Source: a virus (lineage: Duplodnaviria; Heunggongvirae; Uroviricota; Caudoviricetes). Taken from it: DNA of 5,857 nucleotides. Positions 1-5,857 of this stretch are shown in pieces. Within the stretch, counting starts at the first letter, position 1. Each line of letters opens with the position of its first letter. Location of the stretch: IMG/VR virus record IMGVR_UViG_2700989508_000011; one strand, written 5' to 3'. Position numbers and translations under genes: made by a program. The notes under the pieces are model-generated. The model did not search any database, had not been told where the DNA came from, and was given only the letters and a program-made list of their open reading frames with translations.

Positions 1-2089
1 CATAACTGTTAATTGCCCTGACTGTCAGGGTGTATTCCCCGAGCGGCAGACCACTGAAACGATGCTCTGTATCCGCAGTGATGGCGGTGGTCACCAGACG
101 GCTGTCTTCTCCGCTTCCGCTGGTCAGGCGCAGACTGAAGCGCACACCCTTCACCACCCGCGGCGTGTCCCATTTCGCCTGTGCCAGATACTGACCGTCA
201 GCTGCGCTCACCTCCACCGTCAGGTGCTGCACTGCCGGAGGGATGACGCTGTTCAGGGTGCCTGACTGCGGCTCAAAGCTGGCCCCGTTATCCACGATGG
301 CTTCCTTTTCCGGTACGTGCTGCACCGCCGTGATGGCAAAGGTGCCGTCCGTGTTTTCCCGGATGGAGACACAGCGGAACAGGCGACGACGCAGTGACTG
401 CAGGGAGAGTCCCCATACACCGTATGTCTCCACACCATCAGGCAGGGTGCTGACCTGTATCCGGTCCGGCGCGGGGTGTGCGGTGATGGCCACGCTCACC
501 GGCTTACCGCTGCCGTTAATCAGGTTCACCGTGGCGGCACCTGTCTCCGGCAGGGTCACCTCACGGTCCAGTGTCAGGGTGCGGCTGGCGGCATCAATGG
601 ACAGGACACGTCCGCCGGTCAGGGTCCCGGCATAGTCGTTATCACAGATTTCAATAATGTCACCGGGTGTGTGCCGCAGCCCCTGAGACCCGAGCGTGAA
701 ATCCACCGTCTGCGTTTCCAGCAGTCCGGTCTTTATCACCCACAGTCCGGCACGGTGGGCCTGACCGCGGCTGGTACAGCCGAACGCGTCCATCTTCAGC
801 AGGTTGCGTCCGTAGCGCAGTATGGCTTCCGGGTCTTCCACCAGTTCCGTGGAGGTCTGCCAGCCGTTCTGCGGGTCGGTGTAATTCACCTCCACCGCCG
901 TGTGCCGGTCCTTCAGGGCACTGAAGCTGTAGCGGAATCCCACGCCGTTATCATCCACCACCACATCGCTGTTGGTGTACGGCCACACCACATCCGACGG
1001 GCGGTCCTGAACGAACGTCAGCGTCTGGCCGTTCCATACCGGCATACAGCGCATCGCCGAGCAGAAATCACTGAGAACGTCCCACGCCTTACGCTGTTGT
1101 GACAGGTACGCATTAAAGGTCATCCGCGGCTCTGTGCCCCCGAAACCATCCGGGACCGTCTGGTCGCAGTACTGCCCGATGGCATACAGCGCCCACTTGT
1201 CAACATCCGCCGCCACCAGACGTTTTCCCATGCCGTAGCGCGGGTGAGTCAGCATGTCCCACAGGCACCAGGCCGGGTTGTTGCTGTATGCCGGTTTCAG
1301 GCTGCCGTCCCAGATGCCGCTGTACGTGCGTTTTTCCGGGTCATAGTTTGACGGTACCTGGATGATGCGACCGCGGATATGGTAGTTCACCGTCATCTGC
1401 TGACCGCCAAACTGCTCCGCATCCACCTGCAGCCCCACAATCGCCGTGTTCGGGTAGCACTGTTTCACATCGATGATTTCGGTGTATGACGACCAGAGCG
1501 TCTTATTCTGCAGCTGGTCCGAGGTGCTGTCCGCTGTCTCCCGGACCATCCGGATGTTAAAAGGACGGGGAGGCAGATTACCCAGAATCACCGACGCCAG
1601 AAACTGCGAGGTGGTCTTGCCGTTAATGGTGACATCCTTTTCCGTCACCCAGTTACCGTTACGCTGTAACTGAATCAGCAGTCGGACAGAAGAGGGATTA
1701 CGGTCGCCCTTTGAGGTGGTCTCCAACAGTGACTGCACCCCGAAGGTGACCCGCAGGCGGTCAATGTTCGCGGACGTAATGGTGCGCGTCACCGGCTTTG
1801 CCTTCGTCACTTCCACGCCCAGTGCGGTTTCAGATCCGGAGGACTCAAAGCCTTCCGGTGGTGTCTGCTCCTGCTCCCCGGCACGCCAGACCGCGGTCAC
1901 ACCGTGTATCACGGGATTGCCGTCCGTGTCCGTCAGTGGGGTTTTGTTCACCAGAATACTCTGCAGTCCCTTCACCGGACCTTCTATCGGTCCCTCACCA
2001 ATCGCATCAATCACGCTCATCATCTGCGTGGACTTAAGATTGTCCTTTGCCTCTACCGGCGTGTGCGCCTTGCCGCCACCTTTGCCCAT
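1..2089 (-). CDS. J: Tail tip / host-specificity protein J (central tail fibre), N-terminal ~696 codons; C-terminal receptor-binding part lies beyond the left edge
   Basis: Minus-strand ATG at 2089-2087 (plus 'cat'), preceded by a G-rich SD-like 'aagggtgagaca'. My translation starts MGKGGGKAHTPVEAKDNLKSTQMMSVIDAIGEGPIEGP..., which I recognise as the lambda gpJ N-terminus. At the window start the same frame reads ...RFSGLPLGEYTLTVRAINSY. The track shows no minus-strand ORF ending at 2089, consistent with an open frame to the window edge (the track omits ORFs whose stop lies outside the window). I did not translate every codon. Confidence 0.88.
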   Translation of the reverse strand, partial: MGKGGGKAHTPVEAKDNLKSTQMMSVIDAIGEGPIEGPVKGLQSILVNKTPLTDTDGNPVIHGVTAVWRAGEQEQTPPEGFESSGSETALGVEVTKAKPVTRTITSANIDRLRVTFGVQSLLETTSKGDRNPSSVRLLIQLQRNGNWVTEKDVTINGKTTSQFLASVILGNLPPRPFNIRMVRETADSTSDQLQNKTLWSSYTEIIDVKQCYPNTAIVGLQVDAEQFGGQQMTVNYHIRGRIIQVPSNYDPEKRTYSGIWDGSLKPAYSNNPAWCLWDMLTHPRYGMGKRLVAADVDKWALYAIGQYCDQTVPDGFGGTEPRMTFNAYLSQQRKAWDVLSDFCSAMRCMPVWNGQTLTFVQDRPSDVVWPYTNSDVVVDDNGVGFRYSFSALKDRHTAVEVNYTDPQNGWQTSTELVEDPEAILRYGRNLLKMDAFGCTSRGQAHRAGLWVIKTGLLETQTVDFTLGSQGLRHTPGDIIEICDNDYAGTLTGGRVLSIDAASRTLTLDREVTLPETGAATVNLINGSGKPVSVAITAHPAPDRIQVSTLPDGVETYGVWGLSLQSLRRRLFRCVSIRENTDGTFAITAVQHVPEKEAIVDNGASFEPQSGTLNSVIPPAVQHLTVEVSAADGQYLAQAKWDTPRVVKGVRFSLRLTSGSGEDSRLVTTAITADTEHRFSGLPLGEYTLTVRAINSY

Positions 2090-2121
2090 TGTCTCACCCT
2101 TTACTGTGATAACTGTTCACG

Positions 2122-2154
2122 CACAAAAACAACAGGCATCCCGGAGGATGCCTG
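2122..2154 (-). terminator. Rho-independent terminator-like hairpin on the minus strand, 33 bp upstream of the J start
   Basis: Perfect 9-bp GC-rich inverted repeat CAGGCATCC / GGATGCCTG (plus 2133-2154) with a 4-nt loop. On the minus strand it is followed directly by TTGTTTTTGTG (plus 2122-2132). Confidence 0.5.
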
Positions 2155-2192
2155 TATCATCACTGAATAAAAATTCTGAATATCTTCACATT

Positions 2193-2220
2193 TTCACAAA
2201 CTGACTGTGGCGCTAATAAT
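2193..2220 (+). promoter_or_regulatory. Candidate sigma70-like promoter on the plus strand (antisense to the tail operon)
   Basis: TTCACA (2193-2198; 5/6 to TTGACA), 16-bp spacer, AATAAT (2215-2220; 5/6 to TATAAT), in a ~29% GC stretch; predicted start near 2227. Hexamer match only, no experimental support. Confidence 0.25.
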
Positions 2221-2279
2221 TTCTCTGCGTTAATTTTTTTGTCGTGACATAAGAATAATTCTCTATAGTTAATCTTTGT
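2214..2279. repeat. Imperfect direct repeat, two ~26-bp copies with ~38-bp period, in the I-J intergenic island
   Basis: Copy A 2214-2240 'taataatttctctgcgttaattttttt'; copy B 2252-2279 'agaataattctctatagttaatctttgt'. Shared core AATAATT(T)CTCT...GTTAAT. Aligned by eye. Confidence 0.4.
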
Positions 2280-2286
2280 ATCTCTT

Positions 2287-2320
2287 CCCGCAGCTCCGCA
2301 ACTCTGCGGGATTTTTTTAT
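2287..2320 (+). terminator. Rho-independent terminator-like hairpin on the plus strand, abutting the 3' end of gene I
   Basis: Stem CCCGCAG (2287-2293) / CTGCGGG (2304-2310) with a 10-nt loop, followed by A-TTTTTTT-ATTCTTTTT (2311 onward). On the minus strand the same hairpin is followed by 'aagagataca', so it is terminator-like only for rightward transcription. Confidence 0.5.
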
Positions 2321-2325
2321 TCTTT

Positions 2326-3006
2326 TTACCCCTGCCGCCCGATAACCACCACCTTCCCGCCACCACCTTCATCACGGGTGCTGATGTCCTGGGAGATTCG
2401 CCGGGAGCCAACCAGCATTTCACCGTAAGGCACCGGCATCGGGTTCCCCTGGGCAATCATGTTGTCCAGTGACGAAAAATACGTGTTCTGTTTACCGTTA
2501 TCCGTACTTTTGTACTCCGGCGTCTTTGCCTTCGGGGCCAGCATCTGGGCCACACCGCCCAGTATCATGCTGGCCCCCAGTGAAAACAGCATCGTGGTGG
2601 CAGAAAAACCGCCGGCTGCCAGGGCTGAACCCCATAACGCCATCGTTGCGCCGGCGGTGAAGAAAGAGCCCACGATGGCTGCCGCCCCCAGCACAATCTG
2701 CAGTCCGCCTTTCCCTGCACCGGCCAGTCGCGGCACAATGTGGATGACCGTTCCCTCACCCAGCTGTTCGTGAAGACGGGCGTACACCGCCTCCGGTGCC
2801 GTGTCCTCACCGCGAATACGTATCTGGTACCAGCCTTCGTTCATCTGACGGCGGAATCCCGGCACCTGTAACGACAGCGCCCGGATGGCTTCCGCTGCCG
2901 TGTTCACGTACAGGCTGAGGCGGCGGCCAAATCGTTGCAAATCCCCGTGAAGGCAGATGCGTGCCAGTGGCGGTGACGCCAGGCTGAATGCGTTCGTCGT
3001 TGCCAT
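2326..3006 (-). CDS. I: Tail tip assembly protein I (lambda gpI family)
   Basis: 226-aa ORF starting MATTNAFSLASPPLARICLHGDLQRFGRR..., with a Gly/Ala-rich hydrophobic middle and C-terminal ...DEGGGGKVVVIGRQG. I recognise this as lambda gpI (223 aa). Stop TAA at 2328-2326. The start overlaps the 3' end of K by 103 nt in another frame, as I recall for lambda. Confidence 0.9.
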   Translation of the reverse strand: MATTNAFSLASPPLARICLHGDLQRFGRRLSLYVNTAAEAIRALSLQVPGFRRQMNEGWYQIRIRGEDTAPEAVYARLHEQLGEGTVIHIVPRLAGAGKGGLQIVLGAAAIVGSFFTAGATMALWGSALAAGGFSATTMLFSLGASMILGGVAQMLAPKAKTPEYKSTDNGKQNTYFSSLDNMIAQGNPMPVPYGEMLVGSRRISQDISTRDEGGGGKVVVIGRQG

Positions 3007-3647
3007 TTTTCGGAATACCTCTCCCGTTTACTCAGTTGTTCAGGCAGATGGTGAAGCAGTTCACCGTTGCCGCAGTAAATGGCGGCATGATTGGCCACCG
3101 ATGCGCCAAAGCAGCACAGCAGGATATCGCCCGCCTGTGCAGAGGACAGGGGCACCCGGTAAAAGCCGGTGACCGCCATATTGTCCAGGTAAAGGTTCTG
3201 ACCGTTGCGCCACCAGTCATCCTCACGCTCAAAATCCGGCATATCAATTCCCGCCAGATGGTATGCATCCCGGAACAGCGTGTAACAGTCCGTCACCCCG
3301 TGCTCAAAGCGCCGTCCTGTCAGATGTGGCACACAGCGGAATTTATGAATTTCCCCCCGGCAGACCAGCCACCAGGACAGTGCACTTTTTATCTGCAGCC
3401 GCCGGTCGGCCTCGCTCAGCCAGGGCAGACCACCGGGATGACTGTGGACCAGTGCCACAATCTCCCCCTGCATCTCTGCCCGCAGCCAGTCTTCCGGTGC
3501 AATACGAAAATACGCCTCCGGCTCTGCAGAGATATTCACACAAGGGATATACCGCTCCCCCTCCGGCGTTCTCACCACGAAGCCGCACGACTCCGCAGGC
3601 GCACACCGCCGGGCATGCGCCAGAATCGCTGATTCTGTCTGTGTCAT
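2904..3647 (-). CDS. K: Tail tip assembly protein K (lambda gpK family): N-terminal JAB/MPN (JAMM) domain fused to C-terminal NlpC/P60-type cysteine peptidase domain
   Basis: 247-aa ORF. JAMM motif H-x-H-x7-S-x2-D is present as H68-S-H70...S78..D81 (HSHPGGLPWLSEAD), with an upstream AESCGFVV motif around E19. Papain-like Cys in GVTDCYTLF (C121) and His in ANHAAIY (H187). The ATG at 3647 lies 5 nt after the L stop with no obvious SD, suggesting translational coupling. Lambda gpK is annotated shorter (199 aa by my recollection), so the start is somewhat uncertain. Confidence 0.88.
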   Translation of the reverse strand: MTQTESAILAHARRCAPAESCGFVVRTPEGERYIPCVNISAEPEAYFRIAPEDWLRAEMQGEIVALVHSHPGGLPWLSEADRRLQIKSALSWWLVCRGEIHKFRCVPHLTGRRFEHGVTDCYTLFRDAYHLAGIDMPDFEREDDWWRNGQNLYLDNMAVTGFYRVPLSSAQAGDILLCCFGASVANHAAIYCGNGELLHHLPEQLSKRERYSEKWQRRTHSAWRHRHWHASAFTGICNDLAAASACT

Positions 3648-3652
3648 TGGAT

Positions 3653-4351
3653 TTACTGCGAAAGTTTGTTAATGGAAAGGAAACCGCCAAAATTAGCCAC
3701 CATGCCGCGCATCTCACACCCGCGCATGCACTTGCTGCATCTGTCCTTACGGATATCCGTGGTGGGGTTGTCGAACTCATCCGCCACTGCCGGACCGTTA
3801 TACCCGCATTCATCAGAGCGGTAATCCCACATACAGGTGTTCGCCAGCATGATGCGACCGGGAAACAGCGCCCCGTCCGTCTCGGTCGGTGTGGCCAGCA
3901 CAAACGAGGCCGTCATGGCCGTCAGCGATGACATCTGCTCCACCACCCACCGGTCAGTCAGCTCCTGCTCCGGGTCGGCCTCCGGATTGCCTGCCACAAA
4001 GTTCACCGCATCCAGAAAACGCGCATACACCCGGCGGCGGACCACCGTGGCACCCACCAGGCTCTGCAAATCCTCCGCCATCCCGGTGACAAGACCGAAC
4101 AGATTGGACACCGTCAGCGACGGGCGGGCACTGCTGCCCTTTCCGTTCATCTCAAAGCCACTGCCCTCAATCGGGTACGCCTCATACTTACGCCCCTGCC
4201 AGGTGACCGGCTCCCCTTTTTCATTCAGCTCATTGCAGAAAAAATACCGCTCACCGCCCTGCACCGTCAGGTCGATTTCCCAGAGCACCACCCGCGGTGA
4301 CTGCTCTGACTTAACCGACTCGTTCAGGCTTTCTTCGCGAATATCCTGCAT
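3653..4351 (-). CDS. L: Tail tip protein L (lambda gpL family)
   Basis: 232-aa ORF, MQDIREESLNE...FGGFLSINKLSQ, the same length as lambda gpL and recognisably similar. C-terminal Cys cluster C-x8-C...C-x2-C-x3-C. Its ATG shares one nucleotide with the M stop (TGATG at 4353-4349). Confidence 0.92.
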   Translation of the reverse strand: MQDIREESLNESVKSEQSPRVVLWEIDLTVQGGERYFFCNELNEKGEPVTWQGRKYEAYPIEGSGFEMNGKGSSARPSLTVSNLFGLVTGMAEDLQSLVGATVVRRRVYARFLDAVNFVAGNPEADPEQELTDRWVVEQMSSLTAMTASFVLATPTETDGALFPGRIMLANTCMWDYRSDECGYNGPAVADEFDNPTTDIRKDRCSKCMRGCEMRGMVANFGGFLSINKLSQ

Positions 4352-4692
4352 CAGTTCACCACCTGCTCAATCGTACAACTGAAATCACTGTACCTGGCGT
4401 TATCTGTGACGCTCCACTCCCGGCACACCACCCTCACCGTCCGGTTATGTTTCGGCGGTCGCCACAAAAAGGCACGGTAACCACCATGCCAGGATAAAAA
4501 TTCATCCAGCCAGCGCCGGGTTGGTTCATCCGTCACCCGGAACACCGCCTGAAACGTCTTCAGTCTGGCATTAAGTCCCGTCGGTCGGCGCTGTTCATAA
4601 CCGTCACCAAACCGAACCCTCACCACCGACGGTTTCTCACTCACCTGCATCCCTTCACGCGGGACCAGATGCAGCGTTTTTATCTCAGCCAC
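4351..4692 (-). CDS. M: Tail tip protein M (lambda gpM family)
   Basis: 113-aa ORF containing VRFGDGYEQRRPTGLNARLKTF and ending ...FSCTIEQVVN, resembling lambda gpM (109 aa). GTG start at 4692-4690, preceded by a strong SD (GGAGGA, 7-nt spacing) inside the last codons of H; 8-nt overlap with the H stop. Confidence 0.88.
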   Translation of the reverse strand: MAEIKTLHLVPREGMQVSEKPSVVRVRFGDGYEQRRPTGLNARLKTFQAVFRVTDEPTRRWLDEFLSWHGGYRAFLWRPPKHNRTVRVVCREWSVTDNARYSDFSCTIEQVVN

Positions 4693-5857
4693 TCAGCATT
4701 CCTCCGTCACGTCGCATGGACAGCATCACCGCCTGCACCCGCTGGTCAATCAGCTGCACAAGACTGCCTGCCGCCTCCGCCCCTATCTGTCCGTTAGCCC
4801 CGTCATTCTGAATGGCGATGTGGTAGACCGGGGAATACACCAGACCGGCACTGCCGTTCATACTGCCCACCGCGCGTACGCCCAGCGAGCCATCCGCCGC
4901 CCGGGTCAGGGGCATAATGGCTTCAGGTCCGGCTTCCCCCATCAGCCCGGCCCCTTTTGCAAACGCAAAGTACGTGGGCGTGTCCACAATGCTGTTGCTG
5001 TACGCACTCAGGTTTGCCGAGGTATACACGCCGCCTTTTGCATTGGCCACCGCACCGCCCAGCCAGTCACCAATGCTGCCAATAAATCCTCCCGCACCGG
5101 ACATACCGTTTGCCGCCGTCTTAATTCCGTTGACAATCGCGGCATTCATAAGAACTTTTGAGATTTCCTGCAGTACGGATGAGGCCCAGTTGCGCCATTC
5201 CACTTTGTTTCCGTTCAGCATCTCCGTGATGTTATTCACCATCCCTGAGATACCCTCCGTCGCAAGCTGTGCTGCCTGTGAAGCGTAATCGGATGCATTG
5301 TCCACCCAGTTACTGAGCCCCTCCTGCAAGCCTTTCTGCCAGTCCGCACGCTGCGCATCCGATTCGGCATAAAAGGCTGCCTGGTCCTTAAGGCGTTCGC
5401 TCAGATACTGCGCGTTCTGTGCCCGTGCCTGTCTGTAAAAATCCTCACTGATATCCCCGGTCTGATACTGAGACTGAAGGTCCGCATCCTTCTGGCGGAA
5501 GCTGTCGCGGATCTGCTGCAACTCCCGCATGCGTTCCCTGGCTCGTTCTCCCTGCCCGTATCCCAGCAGTTCGGCTTCATTTGATGCACGCGCAGCCACA
5601 TTATCATTCTTCAGGGTCTCTTCCCGGGATCGCAACTGTTCCCGGATTTTTTGCTGGTCAATCAGGGCCGCGTTACGCAGCAGTTCCTGCTTCTGCATCT
5701 CCGTCAGGGTTTTCAGTTCGCCCTGCGCAGTCTGGTACTTCAGCTTCGCCAGCTCTGTATTCTGACCCGCCAGTGCCAGTTGCTCTTTCTGCTGCTTCAG
5801 TAGCCGGGAAAAACTGTCTTCCGCTTTTTCCGTCTCTGATTTTCCACCCCGGGATTT
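4685..5857 (-). CDS. H: Tail tape-measure protein H, C-terminal ~390 codons; N-terminus lies beyond the right edge
   Basis: Frame open from the window edge (5857) to stop TGA at 4687-4685; the track ORF (337 aa from an internal Met) is only the part after the first in-window ATG. The call rests on the Q/E/R/K-rich helical character of the translation and on its position immediately upstream of M-L-K-I-J; H homology itself was not confirmed. Confidence 0.82.
   Translation of the reverse strand, partial: KSRGGKSETEKAEDSFSRLLKQQKEQLALAGQNTELAKLKYQTAQGELKTLTEMQKQELLRNAALIDQQKIREQLRSREETLKNDNVAARASNEAELLGYGQGERARERMRELQQIRDSFRQKDADLQSQYQTGDISEDFYRQARAQNAQYLSERLKDQAAFYAESDAQRADWQKGLQEGLSNWVDNASDYASQAAQLATEGISGMVNNITEMLNGNKVEWRNWASSVLQEISKVLMNAAIVNGIKTAANGMSGAGGFIGSIGDWLGGAVANAKGGVYTSANLSAYSNSIVDTPTYFAFAKGAGLMGEAGPEAIMPLTRAADGSLGVRAVGSMNGSAGLVYSPVYHIAIQNDGANGQIGAEAAGSLVQLIDQRVQAVMLSMRRDGGMLSG

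What the first reader, a model, noticed from the sequence alone, without database searches (positions are those of the whole stretch)
2904..3647. K is a full-length JAB/MPN + NlpC/P60 two-domain protein that overlaps I by 103 nt
The K reading frame carries an intact JAMM metalloprotease signature (H68-x-H70-x7-S78-x2-D81, with upstream E19 in AESCGF) and a papain-like NlpC/P60 Cys/His pair (C121, H187). Its last 34 codons are encoded out of frame over the first 34 codons of I (2904-3006). The ORF begins 5 nt after the L stop with no SD, so it is probably translationally coupled. Lambda gpK is annotated shorter (199 aa by my recollection), so the longer start may be the true one. Comparative genomics has linked gpK-like JAB/NlpC proteins with ubiquitin-like gpI proteins in tail assembly; I did not verify the ubiquitin-like fold of I from sequence.
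Basis: partly seen in the sequence, partly recalled or inferred. Interest (0 to 1): 0.4.

Follow-up and report, generated by a model that had tools for sequence, protein, structure and literature searches.

The report
Lambdoid phage tail-assembly peptidase K, full length
This is the ordinary, already described tail-tip assembly gene K of a lambda-like prophage, encoding a two-peptidase protein that overlaps the next gene, I. The only new point is that phage lambda's shorter textbook K (199 aa) comes from a single G missing from the 1982 reference sequence.

Summary
The minus-strand ORF 2904..3647 encodes 247 aa. Both Pfam domains score well above their cut-offs. The AlphaFold model is very confident (pLDDT 97) and matches archaeal JAMM1, AMSH and CSN5 in one half and MepS/Spr in the other.

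K starts 5 nt after the L stop, has no Shine-Dalgarno sequence, and overlaps I by 103 nt. The window is the H-M-L-K-I-J tail-tip module of an E. coli lambdoid (Stx-phage-like) prophage.

None of this is new. The JAMM motif in lambda K was noted in 2003. The JAB+NlpC/P60 architecture, the ubiquitin-like gpI, and the proposal that K processes I date from 2006. The 247-aa form is the standard annotation for thousands of prophages.

The one useful addition concerns lambda's 199-aa K. The reference sequence (J02459/NC_001416) lacks one G after position 14266. Four independently deposited lambda or lambda-derived records I read, lambda-gt10 in MutaMouse, and all 7,209 matching places in complete E. 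coli genomes have that G, which restores the 247-aa ORF.

That K cleaves the ubiquitin-like domain off I remains an untested inference. Verdict: real, ordinary, already known.

The parts
2904..3647 (-). Gene K: 247-aa tail-tip assembly protein (JAB/MPN+ metalloprotease domain followed by an NlpC/P60 cysteine peptidase domain)
   Evidence: ORF. Pfam domains. 86% identical to the repaired lambda K. AF2 pLDDT 97, pTM 0.91. The exact sequence is WP_045906912.1, 'C40 family peptidase'.
3333..3641 (-). JAB/MPN+ (JAMM) domain, residues 3-105: E19, H68, H70, S78, D81
   Evidence: PF14464, E 7.9e-16. Motif positions. H68, H70 and D81 are invariant, and E19 and S78 are >=90% conserved, in 69 homologues. 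Foldseek hits: P. furiosus JAMM1 5lda (TM 0.69), AMSH, CSN5, Rpn11.
3504..3647 (-). Codons 1-48: the N-terminal helix, strands beta1-beta2 and the catalytic Glu19. This is the part absent from lambda's 199-aa reference annotation.
   Evidence: Helix 3-15 and strands 21-27 and 30-36 have pLDDT 97-99. Third-position diversity is 4.0x that of positions 1+2. Conserved at protein level in Salmonella, Citrobacter and Edwardsiella homologues.
3513..3515 (-). Codon GCG (Ala45). Its last G corresponds to the base missing from the lambda reference sequence (after NC_001416 position 14266).
   Evidence: DNA alignment. Sequence comparison of lambda records.
2976..3317 (-). NlpC/P60 (C40) papain-like domain, residues 111-224: C121, H187, H199
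   Evidence: PF00877, E 3.3e-13. H187 and H199 are invariant and C121 is >=90% conserved. Foldseek hits: MepS/Spr, LytE, C. difficile autolysins.
3648..3655 (-). L/K junction: L stop TAA (3653-3655) plus the 5-nt spacer ATCCA, with no Shine-Dalgarno. Probable termination-reinitiation coupling.
   Evidence: Sequence. Anti-SD duplex +0.7 kcal/mol. 62 of 69 related loci have the K ATG 5 or 10 nt after the L TAA. More distant relatives have gaps of -4 to +1 nt.
2904..3006 (-). K/I overlap, 103 nt. The last 34 sense codons of K (part of the last strand and the C-terminal helix 230-246), with its stop codon, also encode I residues 1-34 in the -1 frame.
   Evidence: Coordinates. The 103-nt overlap is present in every related locus where the I ORF was found and in Edwardsiella. 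Nucleotide diversity is about halved and the third-position excess is lost, 1.14x.
2326..3006 (-). Gene I: 226-aa tail-tip protein (N-terminal ubiquitin-like domain, Gly/Ala-rich hydrophobic linker, C-terminal plug domain)
   Evidence: Pfam Lambda_tail_I PF06805, residues 15-97. Match to lambda gpI chains 8iyk/8iyl/8k35/8xcg with E 1.2e-96.
2716..2964 (-). Predicted ubiquitin-like (beta-grasp, MoaD/ThiS/SAMP-like) domain of I, residues 15-97, ending in the invariant P92-R93...G96-A97
   Evidence: Pfam. Invariant columns. The model is low-confidence, but its top PDB hits are SAMP1, CysO, MoaD and ThiS. Published prediction: PMC1779556.
3018..3025 (-). Shine-Dalgarno-like GGGAGAGG upstream of the I ATG, inside K
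   Evidence: Anti-SD duplex -8.5 kcal/mol, spacing 9.
3653..4351 (-). Gene L (232 aa, tail hub protein); context
   Evidence: Pfam Phage_tail_L, E 1.2e-91.
4351..4692 (-). Gene M (113 aa, distal tail protein); context
   Evidence: Pfam Phage_min_tail, E 2.5e-28.
4685..5857 (-). 3' part of the tape-measure gene H (runs off the window); context
   Evidence: Open frame through to the window end. Synteny with lambda and JLK-2012.
1..2089 (-). 5' part of the central tail fibre gene J (MGKGGGKAHTPVEAKDNLKST...); context
   Evidence: Sequence. Synteny.

Best explanation
The ORF is gene K of a lambdoid prophage tail-tip module (H-M-L-K-I-J).

Shown here: it encodes a 247-aa protein made of a complete JAB/MPN+ zinc metalloprotease domain (E19, H68, H70, S78, D81) fused to a complete NlpC/P60 cysteine peptidase domain (C121, H187, H199). 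The N-terminal 48 residues are an integral, conserved part of the JAB fold. The gene starts 5 nt after the L stop without a Shine-Dalgarno sequence. Its last 103 nt also encode the first 34 residues of I.

Inferred: K is translated by ribosomes that terminate at L and reinitiate, which fits a low-abundance catalytic factor. K is a non-structural maturation enzyme of the tail tip. Its most likely substrate is gpI. The JAB domain, possibly helped by the NlpC/P60 domain, would remove the ubiquitin-like N-terminal domain of I after the conserved Gly at its end (around G96-A97/G101). That would leave the C-terminal plug, which is the only part of gpI seen in mature tails.

Corollary shown here: lambda's own K is also 247 aa. 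The 199-aa reference annotation comes from one G missing from J02459/NC_001416.
For: Identity and architecture: Pfam; motif positions; 69-sequence alignment with invariant catalytic residues; AF2 pLDDT 97; Foldseek hits to JAMM1-SAMP2, AMSH, CSN5, Rpn11 and to MepS, Spr, LytE; synteny and 93-96% DNA identity to Stx-phage tail modules.

Full-length start: 242-247 aa is the dominant length across Enterobacteriaceae. Relatives at 35-50% identity match from about residue 4 onwards. The N-terminal codons show a coding-type substitution pattern. A variant module with its own AGGAG SD starts K at the equivalent position. The lambda-type internal ATG is ATT here.

Coupling: no SD. The L stop and K start are -4 to +10 nt apart in most relatives.

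Lambda reference. None of 7,209 places in 5,426 E. coli genomes shares the G-less 71-mer. MutaMouse lambda-gt10 carries 14266 C>CG (PMC6760142). The exact 247-aa lambda K is on >=1000 contigs. All 9 of the 10 sampled '199-aa' contigs in which the site could be read carry the G.

Substrate inference: the prediction is in PMC1779556. gpK is absent from virions and only gpI residues 134/135-223 are resolved (PMC10721106; PMC12617516). In F-pyocin the N-domain of the gpI homologue is present in precursor tips and removed in mature particles, and the gpK homologue is essential for the tip (bioRxiv 10.64898/2026.02.24.707460). The I N-domain model hits SAMP, MoaD and ThiS, and the best JAB hit for K is the JAMM1-SAMP2 complex.
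Against: No experiment shows that K cleaves I. The missing N-terminal density of gpI could simply be disorder. In F-pyocin the protease is explicitly unknown, and the N-domain of the homologue expressed alone in E. coli was removed by host proteases. The model of I is low-confidence (mean pLDDT 44.8, N-domain 55-69) and its Foldseek E-values are only 4e-3 or weaker. Translational coupling is inferred from geometry only. Some relatives have an SD-bearing 53-nt spacer or an inserted gene between L and K, so coupling is not obligatory for the family. Two further GenBank lambda records (OR474059.1, OR974322.1) share the G-less sequence, so I cannot formally exclude that some stock really carries it.
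Confidence: 0.8

Rival explanations
1. K is a virion-associated cell-wall hydrolase. Its NlpC/P60 domain would cut host peptidoglycan during DNA injection, as tape-measure or tail-associated lysins do in other phages. The JAB domain would be accessory.
For: The NlpC/P60 half is structurally closest to the murein endopeptidases MepS/Spr and LytE and to autolysins. There is a weak NCBIfam match to 'putative phage cell wall peptidase, NlpC/P60 family'.
Against: gpK was not detected in lambda virions by mass spectrometry and was not seen in any cryo-EM map (PMC10721106; PMC12617516). The F-pyocin homologue is absent from mature particles. The NCBIfam match (25.6 bits) is far below its cut-off (81.9). 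K has no signal peptide or secretion route that I could see, and it acts in the cytoplasm during assembly.
Confidence: 0.07
2. K is the protease that converts the tape-measure protein gpH into gpH* (cleavage in the Gly-rich C-terminal region) rather than, or as well as, processing gpI.
For: The protease for gpH cleavage is unknown (PMC12617516). K is the only peptidase-like protein in the tail module. The C-terminus of gpH sits on the gpI trimer in the tip.
Against: By established lambda genetics (my knowledge, not tested here), K acts at tip/initiator formation, whereas H cleavage happens after tube polymerisation. K-type JAB domains co-occur specifically with the ubiquitin-like gpI across phages (PMC1779556). 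There are no data linking K to H.
Confidence: 0.1
3. K acts as a non-catalytic assembly chaperone or scaffold, and the peptidase motifs are relics.
For: No enzymatic activity has ever been reported for gpK in the papers I could read. Some phages have K versions with only the NlpC/P60 domain (PMC1779556).
Against: All eight catalytic residues of both sites are invariant or >=90% conserved in 69 homologues down to 32% identity. That is not expected for relic sites. The JAB region has the strongest purifying selection in the gene, with a position-3 to position-1+2 ratio of 10.
Confidence: 0.08

Closest known systems
Bacteriophage lambda gpK (tail tip assembly protein K; TAPK of Iyer, Burroughs and Aravind 2006)
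   Same: Same position in the H-M-L-K-I-J module. 86% amino-acid identity to the repaired 247-aa lambda K. Same 5-nt L-K spacer, same 103-nt overlap with I, and the same JAB + NlpC/P60 architecture.
   Different: Nothing of substance. The reference lambda entry (NC_001416 / UniProt TIPK_LAMBD, 199 aa) looks different only because one G is missing from that sequence. Residue 49 is Ile here and Met in lambda.
Archaeal JAMM1 / desampylase (P. furiosus JAMM1-SAMP2, 5lda; HvJAMM1) and eukaryotic MPN+ isopeptidases (AMSH, CSN5, Rpn11)
   Same: Same fold and the same E...HxH...S..D zinc site. Best structural hit has TM 0.69 and rmsd 2.5 A. Weak NCBIfam desampylase match. The partner has a MoaD/SAMP-like beta-grasp domain.
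   Different: Only about 20-23% identity. Here the JAB domain is fused to an NlpC/P60 domain. The presumed substrate is a linear fusion (Ubl-linker-plug within gpI), not an isopeptide conjugate. No E1/E2 partners are present.
NlpC/P60 (C40) peptidases such as E. coli MepS/Spr and B. subtilis LytE
   Same: Papain-like fold and a Cys-His-His triad. Foldseek TM 0.56-0.68. Pfam PF00877.
   Different: Cytoplasmic and phage-encoded, with no signal peptide or lipobox evident. Not found in virions. The target is probably a protein rather than a murein peptide.
F-type pyocin PA0639 (gpK homologue) and PA0640 (gpI homologue)
   Same: Same module. The gpK homologue is essential for the tip and absent from particles. 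The N-domain of the gpI homologue is removed on maturation.
   Different: Pseudomonas tailocin, not a phage. I did not measure its sequence identity to this K.

Membership tests
JAB/MPN+ (JAMM) metalloproteases | Motif E-x(n)-H-S/T-H-x7-S-x2-D | tested here: met
   E19, H68-S69-H70, S78 and D81 at exact spacing. Invariant or >=90% conserved in 69 homologues. Motif definition from PMC300881.
JAB/MPN+ (JAMM) metalloproteases | Profile match above the curated threshold | tested here: met
   PF14464 Prok-JAB, 58.4 bits against a cut-off of 25, covering profile positions 3-113 of 114.
JAB/MPN+ (JAMM) metalloproteases | MPN fold | tested here: met
   AF2 model pLDDT 97. Foldseek probability 1.00 to JAMM1, AMSH, CSN5 and Rpn11.
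JAB/MPN+ (JAMM) metalloproteases | Zinc binding and (iso)peptidase activity | not testable with these tools
   Needs biochemistry.
NlpC/P60 (MEROPS C40) cysteine peptidases | Catalytic Cys at the helix N-terminus, plus His, plus a third polar residue (His) | tested here: met
   C121 sits at the start of helix 121-131, with H187 and H199. H187 and H199 are invariant and C121 is >=90% conserved.
NlpC/P60 (MEROPS C40) cysteine peptidases | Profile match above the curated threshold, and fold | tested here: met
   PF00877, 49.9 bits against 23, covering the full profile 1-105. Foldseek hits to MepS/Spr, LytE and Acd autolysins.
NlpC/P60 (MEROPS C40) cysteine peptidases | Peptidase activity and substrate | not testable with these tools
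   Needs biochemistry.
Lambda gpK / TAPK tail-tip assembly proteins | Located between L and I in an H-M-L-K-I-J tail module | tested here: met
   Pfam assignments of the neighbours. Annotated synteny in lambda, JLK-2012 and an Stx2 phage.
Lambda gpK / TAPK tail-tip assembly proteins | Close sequence similarity to lambda K over its full length | tested here: met
   86% identity to the 247-aa lambda K. phrog_30 E 1.8e-159.
Lambda gpK / TAPK tail-tip assembly proteins | Required for tail assembly but absent from virions | not testable with these tools
   Known for lambda and for the F-pyocin homologue from the literature. Not testable for this prophage.
gpI / TAPI with ubiquitin-like beta-grasp N-domain (partner gene) | Pfam Lambda_tail_I match, and a conserved Gly at the end of the N-domain | tested here: met
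   PF06805, 57.1 bits against 23.8, residues 15-97. P92, R93, G96, A97 and G101 are invariant in 23 homologues.
gpI / TAPI with ubiquitin-like beta-grasp N-domain (partner gene) | Beta-grasp fold | tested here: inconclusive
   The model is low-confidence (N-domain pLDDT 55-69). Its top 12 PDB hits are all SAMP1, CysO, MoaD or ThiS (TM 0.58-0.69), but with E 4e-3 to 2e-2.
gpI / TAPI with ubiquitin-like beta-grasp N-domain (partner gene) | N-domain removed by K | not testable with these tools
   Prediction only (PMC1779556). Indirect support.

The most novel reading that the evidence does not exclude
K is the long-sought protease of a 'ubiquitin-like' proteolytic checkpoint in siphophage tail-tip assembly. 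Its JAB domain would clip the beta-grasp N-domain off gpI after the conserved Gly, licensing the tip to dock the tape measure and tube. Because lambda's real K is 247 aa with a complete JAMM site (the 199-aa reference form lacks the catalytic Glu), this becomes directly testable in lambda itself with the correct construct.
Probability: 0.45. Interest if true: 0.5.

Novelty: already known. Interest (0 to 1): 0.17.

Why it matters
For this window it matters little. The gene is correctly annotated in RefSeq as a 247-aa 'C40 family peptidase', and its architecture and its link with gpI were published in 2003-2006.

The practical value is a curation point. The most-used phage reference records (NC_001416, UniProt TIPK_LAMBD) carry a K that lacks 48 residues, including the catalytic Glu. 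Recent work still analyses gpK as a 199-residue, single-peptidase protein (PMC7291167). Anyone cloning or modelling lambda K from the reference would make a crippled JAB domain. That is relevant now that a proteolytic checkpoint on the gpI homologue has been reported with its protease unidentified.

Tried and rejected
- **Programmed frameshift.** I considered a -1 frameshift in the 103-nt overlap that would make a K-I fusion. I is in the -1 frame, and K-I fusion proteins exist in the databases (P0024, P0044, P0112, P0118; phrog_28576). However, they are clusters of one or two sequences, and by eye I found no X XXY YYZ slippery heptamer in the overlap. They are most simply sequencing or pseudogene frameshifts. 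Rejected as unsupported.
- **Lambda's 199-aa K as a real, widespread allele.** Rejected. No E. coli genome shares the G-less 71-mer. In the 9 of 10 sampled contigs 'encoding' the exact 199-aa protein where the site could be read, the G is present; their short calls come from other indels or from gene-caller choice. The diagnostic 76-aa ORF of the G-less allele is absent from a 15-billion-protein collection. That last point is weak, because such an ORF might not be called.
- **Overlap resolved by duplication.** I tested whether the non-overlapping K/I arrangement of distant relatives keeps traces of the other gene in alternative frames. No trace was found.
- **Rfam.** Nothing at gathering thresholds on the whole window. 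One sub-threshold chance hit in the I-J spacer.
- **The search for related loci.** The 69-sequence alignment failed because it has no stretch conserved enough. The 14-sequence alignment returned only close relatives, so distant loci were sampled one at a time.
- **Model of I.** Low confidence, so the beta-grasp fold is only weakly supported.
- **Papers not held.** The lambda ribosome-profiling paper (PNAS 2013) and the Casjens-Hendrix 2015 review are not in the library. I therefore could not check start-site data, or whether the reference error has been stated in print. Full-text searches found no paper discussing it.
Full report
**What is in the window**

The minus strand carries a lambdoid tail-tip module:
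- the 3' part of the tape-measure gene H (4685-5857, open to the window end);
- M (4351-4692), L (3653-4351), K (2904-3647) and I (2326-3006);
- after a 236-nt AT-rich spacer, the start of J (ATG at 2089).

The DNA is 93-96% identical to the tail regions of Stx1a/Stx2-converting phages and phage JLK-2012. The exact K protein is RefSeq WP_045906912.1, 'C40 family peptidase [Escherichia coli]'. Its longest contig on record is 5,857 bp, which suggests the window is a whole draft-assembly contig.

**Checking the observation**

Every stated detail is correct.
- The ORF 2904..3647 (-) is 247 codons from an ATG.
The spacing is the canonical JAMM motif E-x(n)-H-S/T-H-x7-S-x2-D (definition in PMC300881).
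- The L stop TAA is followed by ATCCA and then the K ATG.
- I starts at 3006, so the overlap is 103 nt, with I in the -1 frame relative to K.
- Pfam detects Prok-JAB (residues 3-105, 58.4 bits against a cut-off of 25) and NLPC_P60 (residues 111-224, 49.9 bits against 23). The refutation condition 'profile searches fail' is therefore not met.

**Is the long form the real protein?**

Six independent lines say yes.
1. Among the best 120 database relatives, the dominant length across E. coli, Shigella, Salmonella, Citrobacter and Edwardsiella is 242-247 aa with both domains. Among representatives at 35-50% identity, lengths are mostly 220-270 aa and the match begins around residue 4-10.
2. In a 69-sequence alignment reaching 32% identity, H68, H70, D81, H187 and H199 are invariant. 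E19, S78 and C121 are at least 90% conserved.
3. An AlphaFold model built on that alignment has mean pLDDT 97 and pTM 0.91. Residues 1-48 form helix 3-15 and strands 21-27 and 30-36 at pLDDT 97-99, so they are core elements of the JAB fold and not an appendage. Foldseek against the PDB returns P. furiosus JAMM1 alone and bound to SAMP2 (TM 0.68-0.69), AMSH, CSN5 and Rpn11 for one half. It returns MepS/Spr, LytE and clostridial autolysins for the other half.
4. Across 68 distinct 744-nt homologous sequences, codons 2-48 show third-position diversity 4.0 times that of positions 1+2. The ratio is 4.8-10 for the rest of K, so these codons evolve as coding sequence in this frame.
5. Lambda's annotated start codon (Met49) is ATT (Ile) in this window and in several homologues. 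The next in-frame ATG is codon 59.
6. A minority of related phages carry a different L-K junction: a 53-54-nt spacer with a hairpin and a genuine AGGAG. They still start K (245 aa) at the equivalent position.

**The start and translational coupling**

The 25 nt upstream of the K ATG cannot pair with the anti-SD (best duplex +0.7 kcal/mol). M, L, I and J score -4.5 to -9.5 kcal/mol. In 62 of 69 related IMG/VR loci the K ATG lies 5 or 10 nt after the L TAA. In four sampled distant relatives the L stop and K start are -4 to +1 nt apart where L was identified. It remains an inference. The SD-bearing variant and an Edwardsiella prophage with a gene inserted between L and K show that coupling is not obligatory in the family.

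**The overlap with I**

- The 103-nt overlap is present in every close locus where the I ORF was found, in lambda, and in an Edwardsiella prophage at 67% K identity.
- A relative at 50% identity has a 61-nt overlap in the same register: K '...NDL' is read as I '...RFG'.
- Relatives at 34-43% identity have an overlap of 4 nt, 1 nt or none.
- Within the overlap, nucleotide diversity is roughly halved (0.032 against 0.046-0.062). The third-position excess disappears (1.14x), as expected for dual coding.
- The I ATG at 3006 has a good SD (GGGAGAGG, -8.5 kcal/mol). It is the only ATG upstream of the first beta-strand (ARICLHGDL), because lambda's alternative Met14 is Leu here.

**Why lambda's K is annotated as 199 aa**

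- In NC_001416/J02459 the ATG 5 nt after the L stop opens a frame that runs only 76 codons. The annotated K (14276-14875) is in another frame.
- Alignment shows that lambda reads GAGGC-TATTTCC where the window and the two other lambdoid phages aligned read GAGGCGTAT....
- Of 122 phage records matching a 71-mer across the site, only four have the 71-nt form: J02459, its RefSeq copy, OR474059.1 and OR974322.1. The other 56 records listed span 72 nt.
- In the four I read directly, the extra G is present and the ORF is 247 aa: PV340536.1, LC730321.1 (48,503 bp), KT232076.1 and DE3. The 72-nt group also includes lambda imm21/imm434 hybrids, HK629 and HK630.
- PV340536.1 already annotates a 744-nt K.
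- In 5,426 complete E. coli genomes, none of 7,209 matching places is identical to the G-less 71-mer.
- Whole-genome sequencing of the lambda-gt10 transgene in MutaMouse lists '14266 C>CG' as a constitutional difference from the reference, without comment (PMC6760142).
- The exact 247-aa lambda K is on at least 1,000 contigs in public assemblies and is named 'MULTISPECIES: C40 family peptidase [Bacteria]'. That name would fit lambda DNA contaminating many assemblies.
- Of 10 sampled contigs whose called gene product is the exact 199-aa protein, the site could be read in 9, and all 9 carry the G. Their short calls stem from other indels or from gene-caller choice.

I conclude with high confidence that the reference lacks a base and that lambda K is 247 aa. 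A private mutation in the sequenced stock cannot be formally excluded. I found no paper in the held library that states this. Two likely sources, the lambda ribosome-profiling paper and the Casjens-Hendrix review, are not held. The truncated form still propagates: a 2020 review analyses gpK as 199 residues with a single peptidase domain (PMC7291167).

**How it most likely works**

Known from the literature:
- K is needed for tail-tip assembly but is not in virions. It was not detected by MS and is not resolved in any map (PMC10721106; PMC12617516).
- gpI is in the tip as a trimeric plug, but only residues 134/135-223 are seen.
- Iyer, Burroughs and Aravind (PMC1779556) identified the JAB + NlpC/P60 architecture of K and a ThiS/MoaD-like ubiquitin fold in the N-terminus of I, followed by a Gly-rich linker. 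They predicted that the JAB domain releases the ubiquitin-like domain by cutting after its C-terminal Gly.
- A 2026 preprint on F-pyocin reports that the N-domain of the gpI homologue is present in stalled precursor tips and absent from mature particles, a 'proteolytic checkpoint'. The protease is unidentified, and the gpK homologue is essential for tip formation.

My own evidence:
- The catalytic residues of both K domains are under strong conservation.
- I has invariant P92, R93, G96, A97 and G101 at the end of the Pfam Lambda_tail_I domain.
- The model of I is low-confidence, but its top 12 PDB hits are all SAMP1, CysO, MoaD or ThiS beta-grasp proteins. The best JAB hit for K is the JAMM1-SAMP2 complex.

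The best-supported mechanism is therefore that K is a cytoplasmic, low-abundance maturation peptidase that trims gpI. The cleavage step itself is inferred and not shown.

Rivals:
- Virion-associated murein hydrolase: disfavoured because K is absent from particles.
- gpH-to-gpH* protease: possible, with no supporting data.
- Non-catalytic chaperone: disfavoured by active-site conservation.

**Comparison with what is known, and novelty**

This is a member of the lambda gpK/TAPK family by every testable criterion: synteny, 86% identity, both domain profiles, both active sites and fold. The JAMM motif in lambda K was listed in 2003 (PMC300881). The two-domain architecture and the gpI link date from 2006. 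RefSeq already names thousands of 247-aa copies. The finding is therefore correct but already known.

The added value is the explanation of the 199-aa lambda annotation and a set of small observations listed separately. I rate interest low (0.17). The most novel reading not excluded is that K is the protease of a ubiquitin-like checkpoint in tail-tip assembly. I give it probability 0.45 and interest 0.5 if true.

Noticed in passing
L001 1367/1368 (= NC_001416 14266/14267); homologous to window 3513: The lambda reference sequence lacks one G (GAGGC-TATTTCC). This splits K into a 76-codon ORF and the annotated 199-aa ORF. Four independently deposited lambda or lambda-derived records, MutaMouse lambda-gt10 (14266 C>CG), and all 7,209 matching places in E. 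coli genomes have the G, which gives a 247-aa K. RefSeq and UniProt still show 199 aa.
   Followed up: yes
window 2090-2325 (between I stop and J start): A 236-nt AT-rich I-J spacer, against 60 nt in lambda. It has a minus-strand terminator-like hairpin (2155-2132) just before J. On the plus strand it has a sigma-70-like promoter (2193-2220, 10/12) and a terminator-like hairpin plus T7 (2295-2310). That could give a small antisense-oriented transcript of about 80-100 nt. The fold z-score is -2.35. There is no Rfam family. The spacer is present but unannotated in about 1,645 complete E. coli genomes.
   Followed up: partly
L043, L077, L079, L082 (IMG/VR), L-K junction: An alternative L-K junction in some lambdoid phages: a 53-54-nt spacer containing a terminator-like hairpin (ACCCAGCTTCGGCTGGGTTTTT) and a real AGGAG SD 7 nt before the ATG. 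K is 245 aa with a different first few residues (MLYSNILA...).
   Followed up: partly
window 2904-3006 and public annotations of I (P0312, P0318, P0323; L002 1999-2580; L004 1545): The start of I is annotated inconsistently in public records, at 226/223, 210, 204 and 193 aa. The 193-aa version starts at the GTG that overlaps the K stop (GTGA). It removes the first two strands of the ubiquitin-like domain, so it is probably wrong. In this window only the ATG at 3006 lies upstream of strand 1.
   Followed up: partly
window 2904-2967; L091 3172-3232; L092 and L094 K/I junctions: The C-terminal helix motif of K (...G-I-x-N-D-L...) and the first strand and loop of I (...L-H-G-x-L-x-x-F-G...) are both conserved in distant relatives where the genes do not overlap. 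In the lambda clade the same two motifs are encoded by the same DNA in a fixed register (NDL / RFG). How both survived a change between overlapping and non-overlapping arrangements is unexplained. One possibility is an ancestral overlap resolved by duplication. No trace of that was found in the alternative frames.
   Followed up: partly
L089 2069-2398 (Edwardsiella prophage, CP084428.1): A 109-aa gene with a weak zinc-ribbon match, flanked by AT-rich DNA, is inserted between L and K. It looks like a moron. K there has its own distant start.
   Followed up: no
database proteins P0018, P0019, P0043, P0045 (L-K) and P0024, P0044, P0112, P0118 (K-I); phrog_28576: Fused L-K and K-I proteins occur as small clusters (1-11 sequences), and one PHROG family is built on K-I fusions. 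They are most simply frameshift errors or pseudogenes at the short L-K spacer and in the K/I overlap, not programmed fusions.
   Followed up: partly
phrog_7305 (76-position profile) against window K residues 1-76: A PHROG family of exactly 76 positions matches the N-terminus of K (E 4.9e-50). It probably derives from the artefactual 76-codon ORF created by the lambda reference gap and its copies.
   Followed up: no
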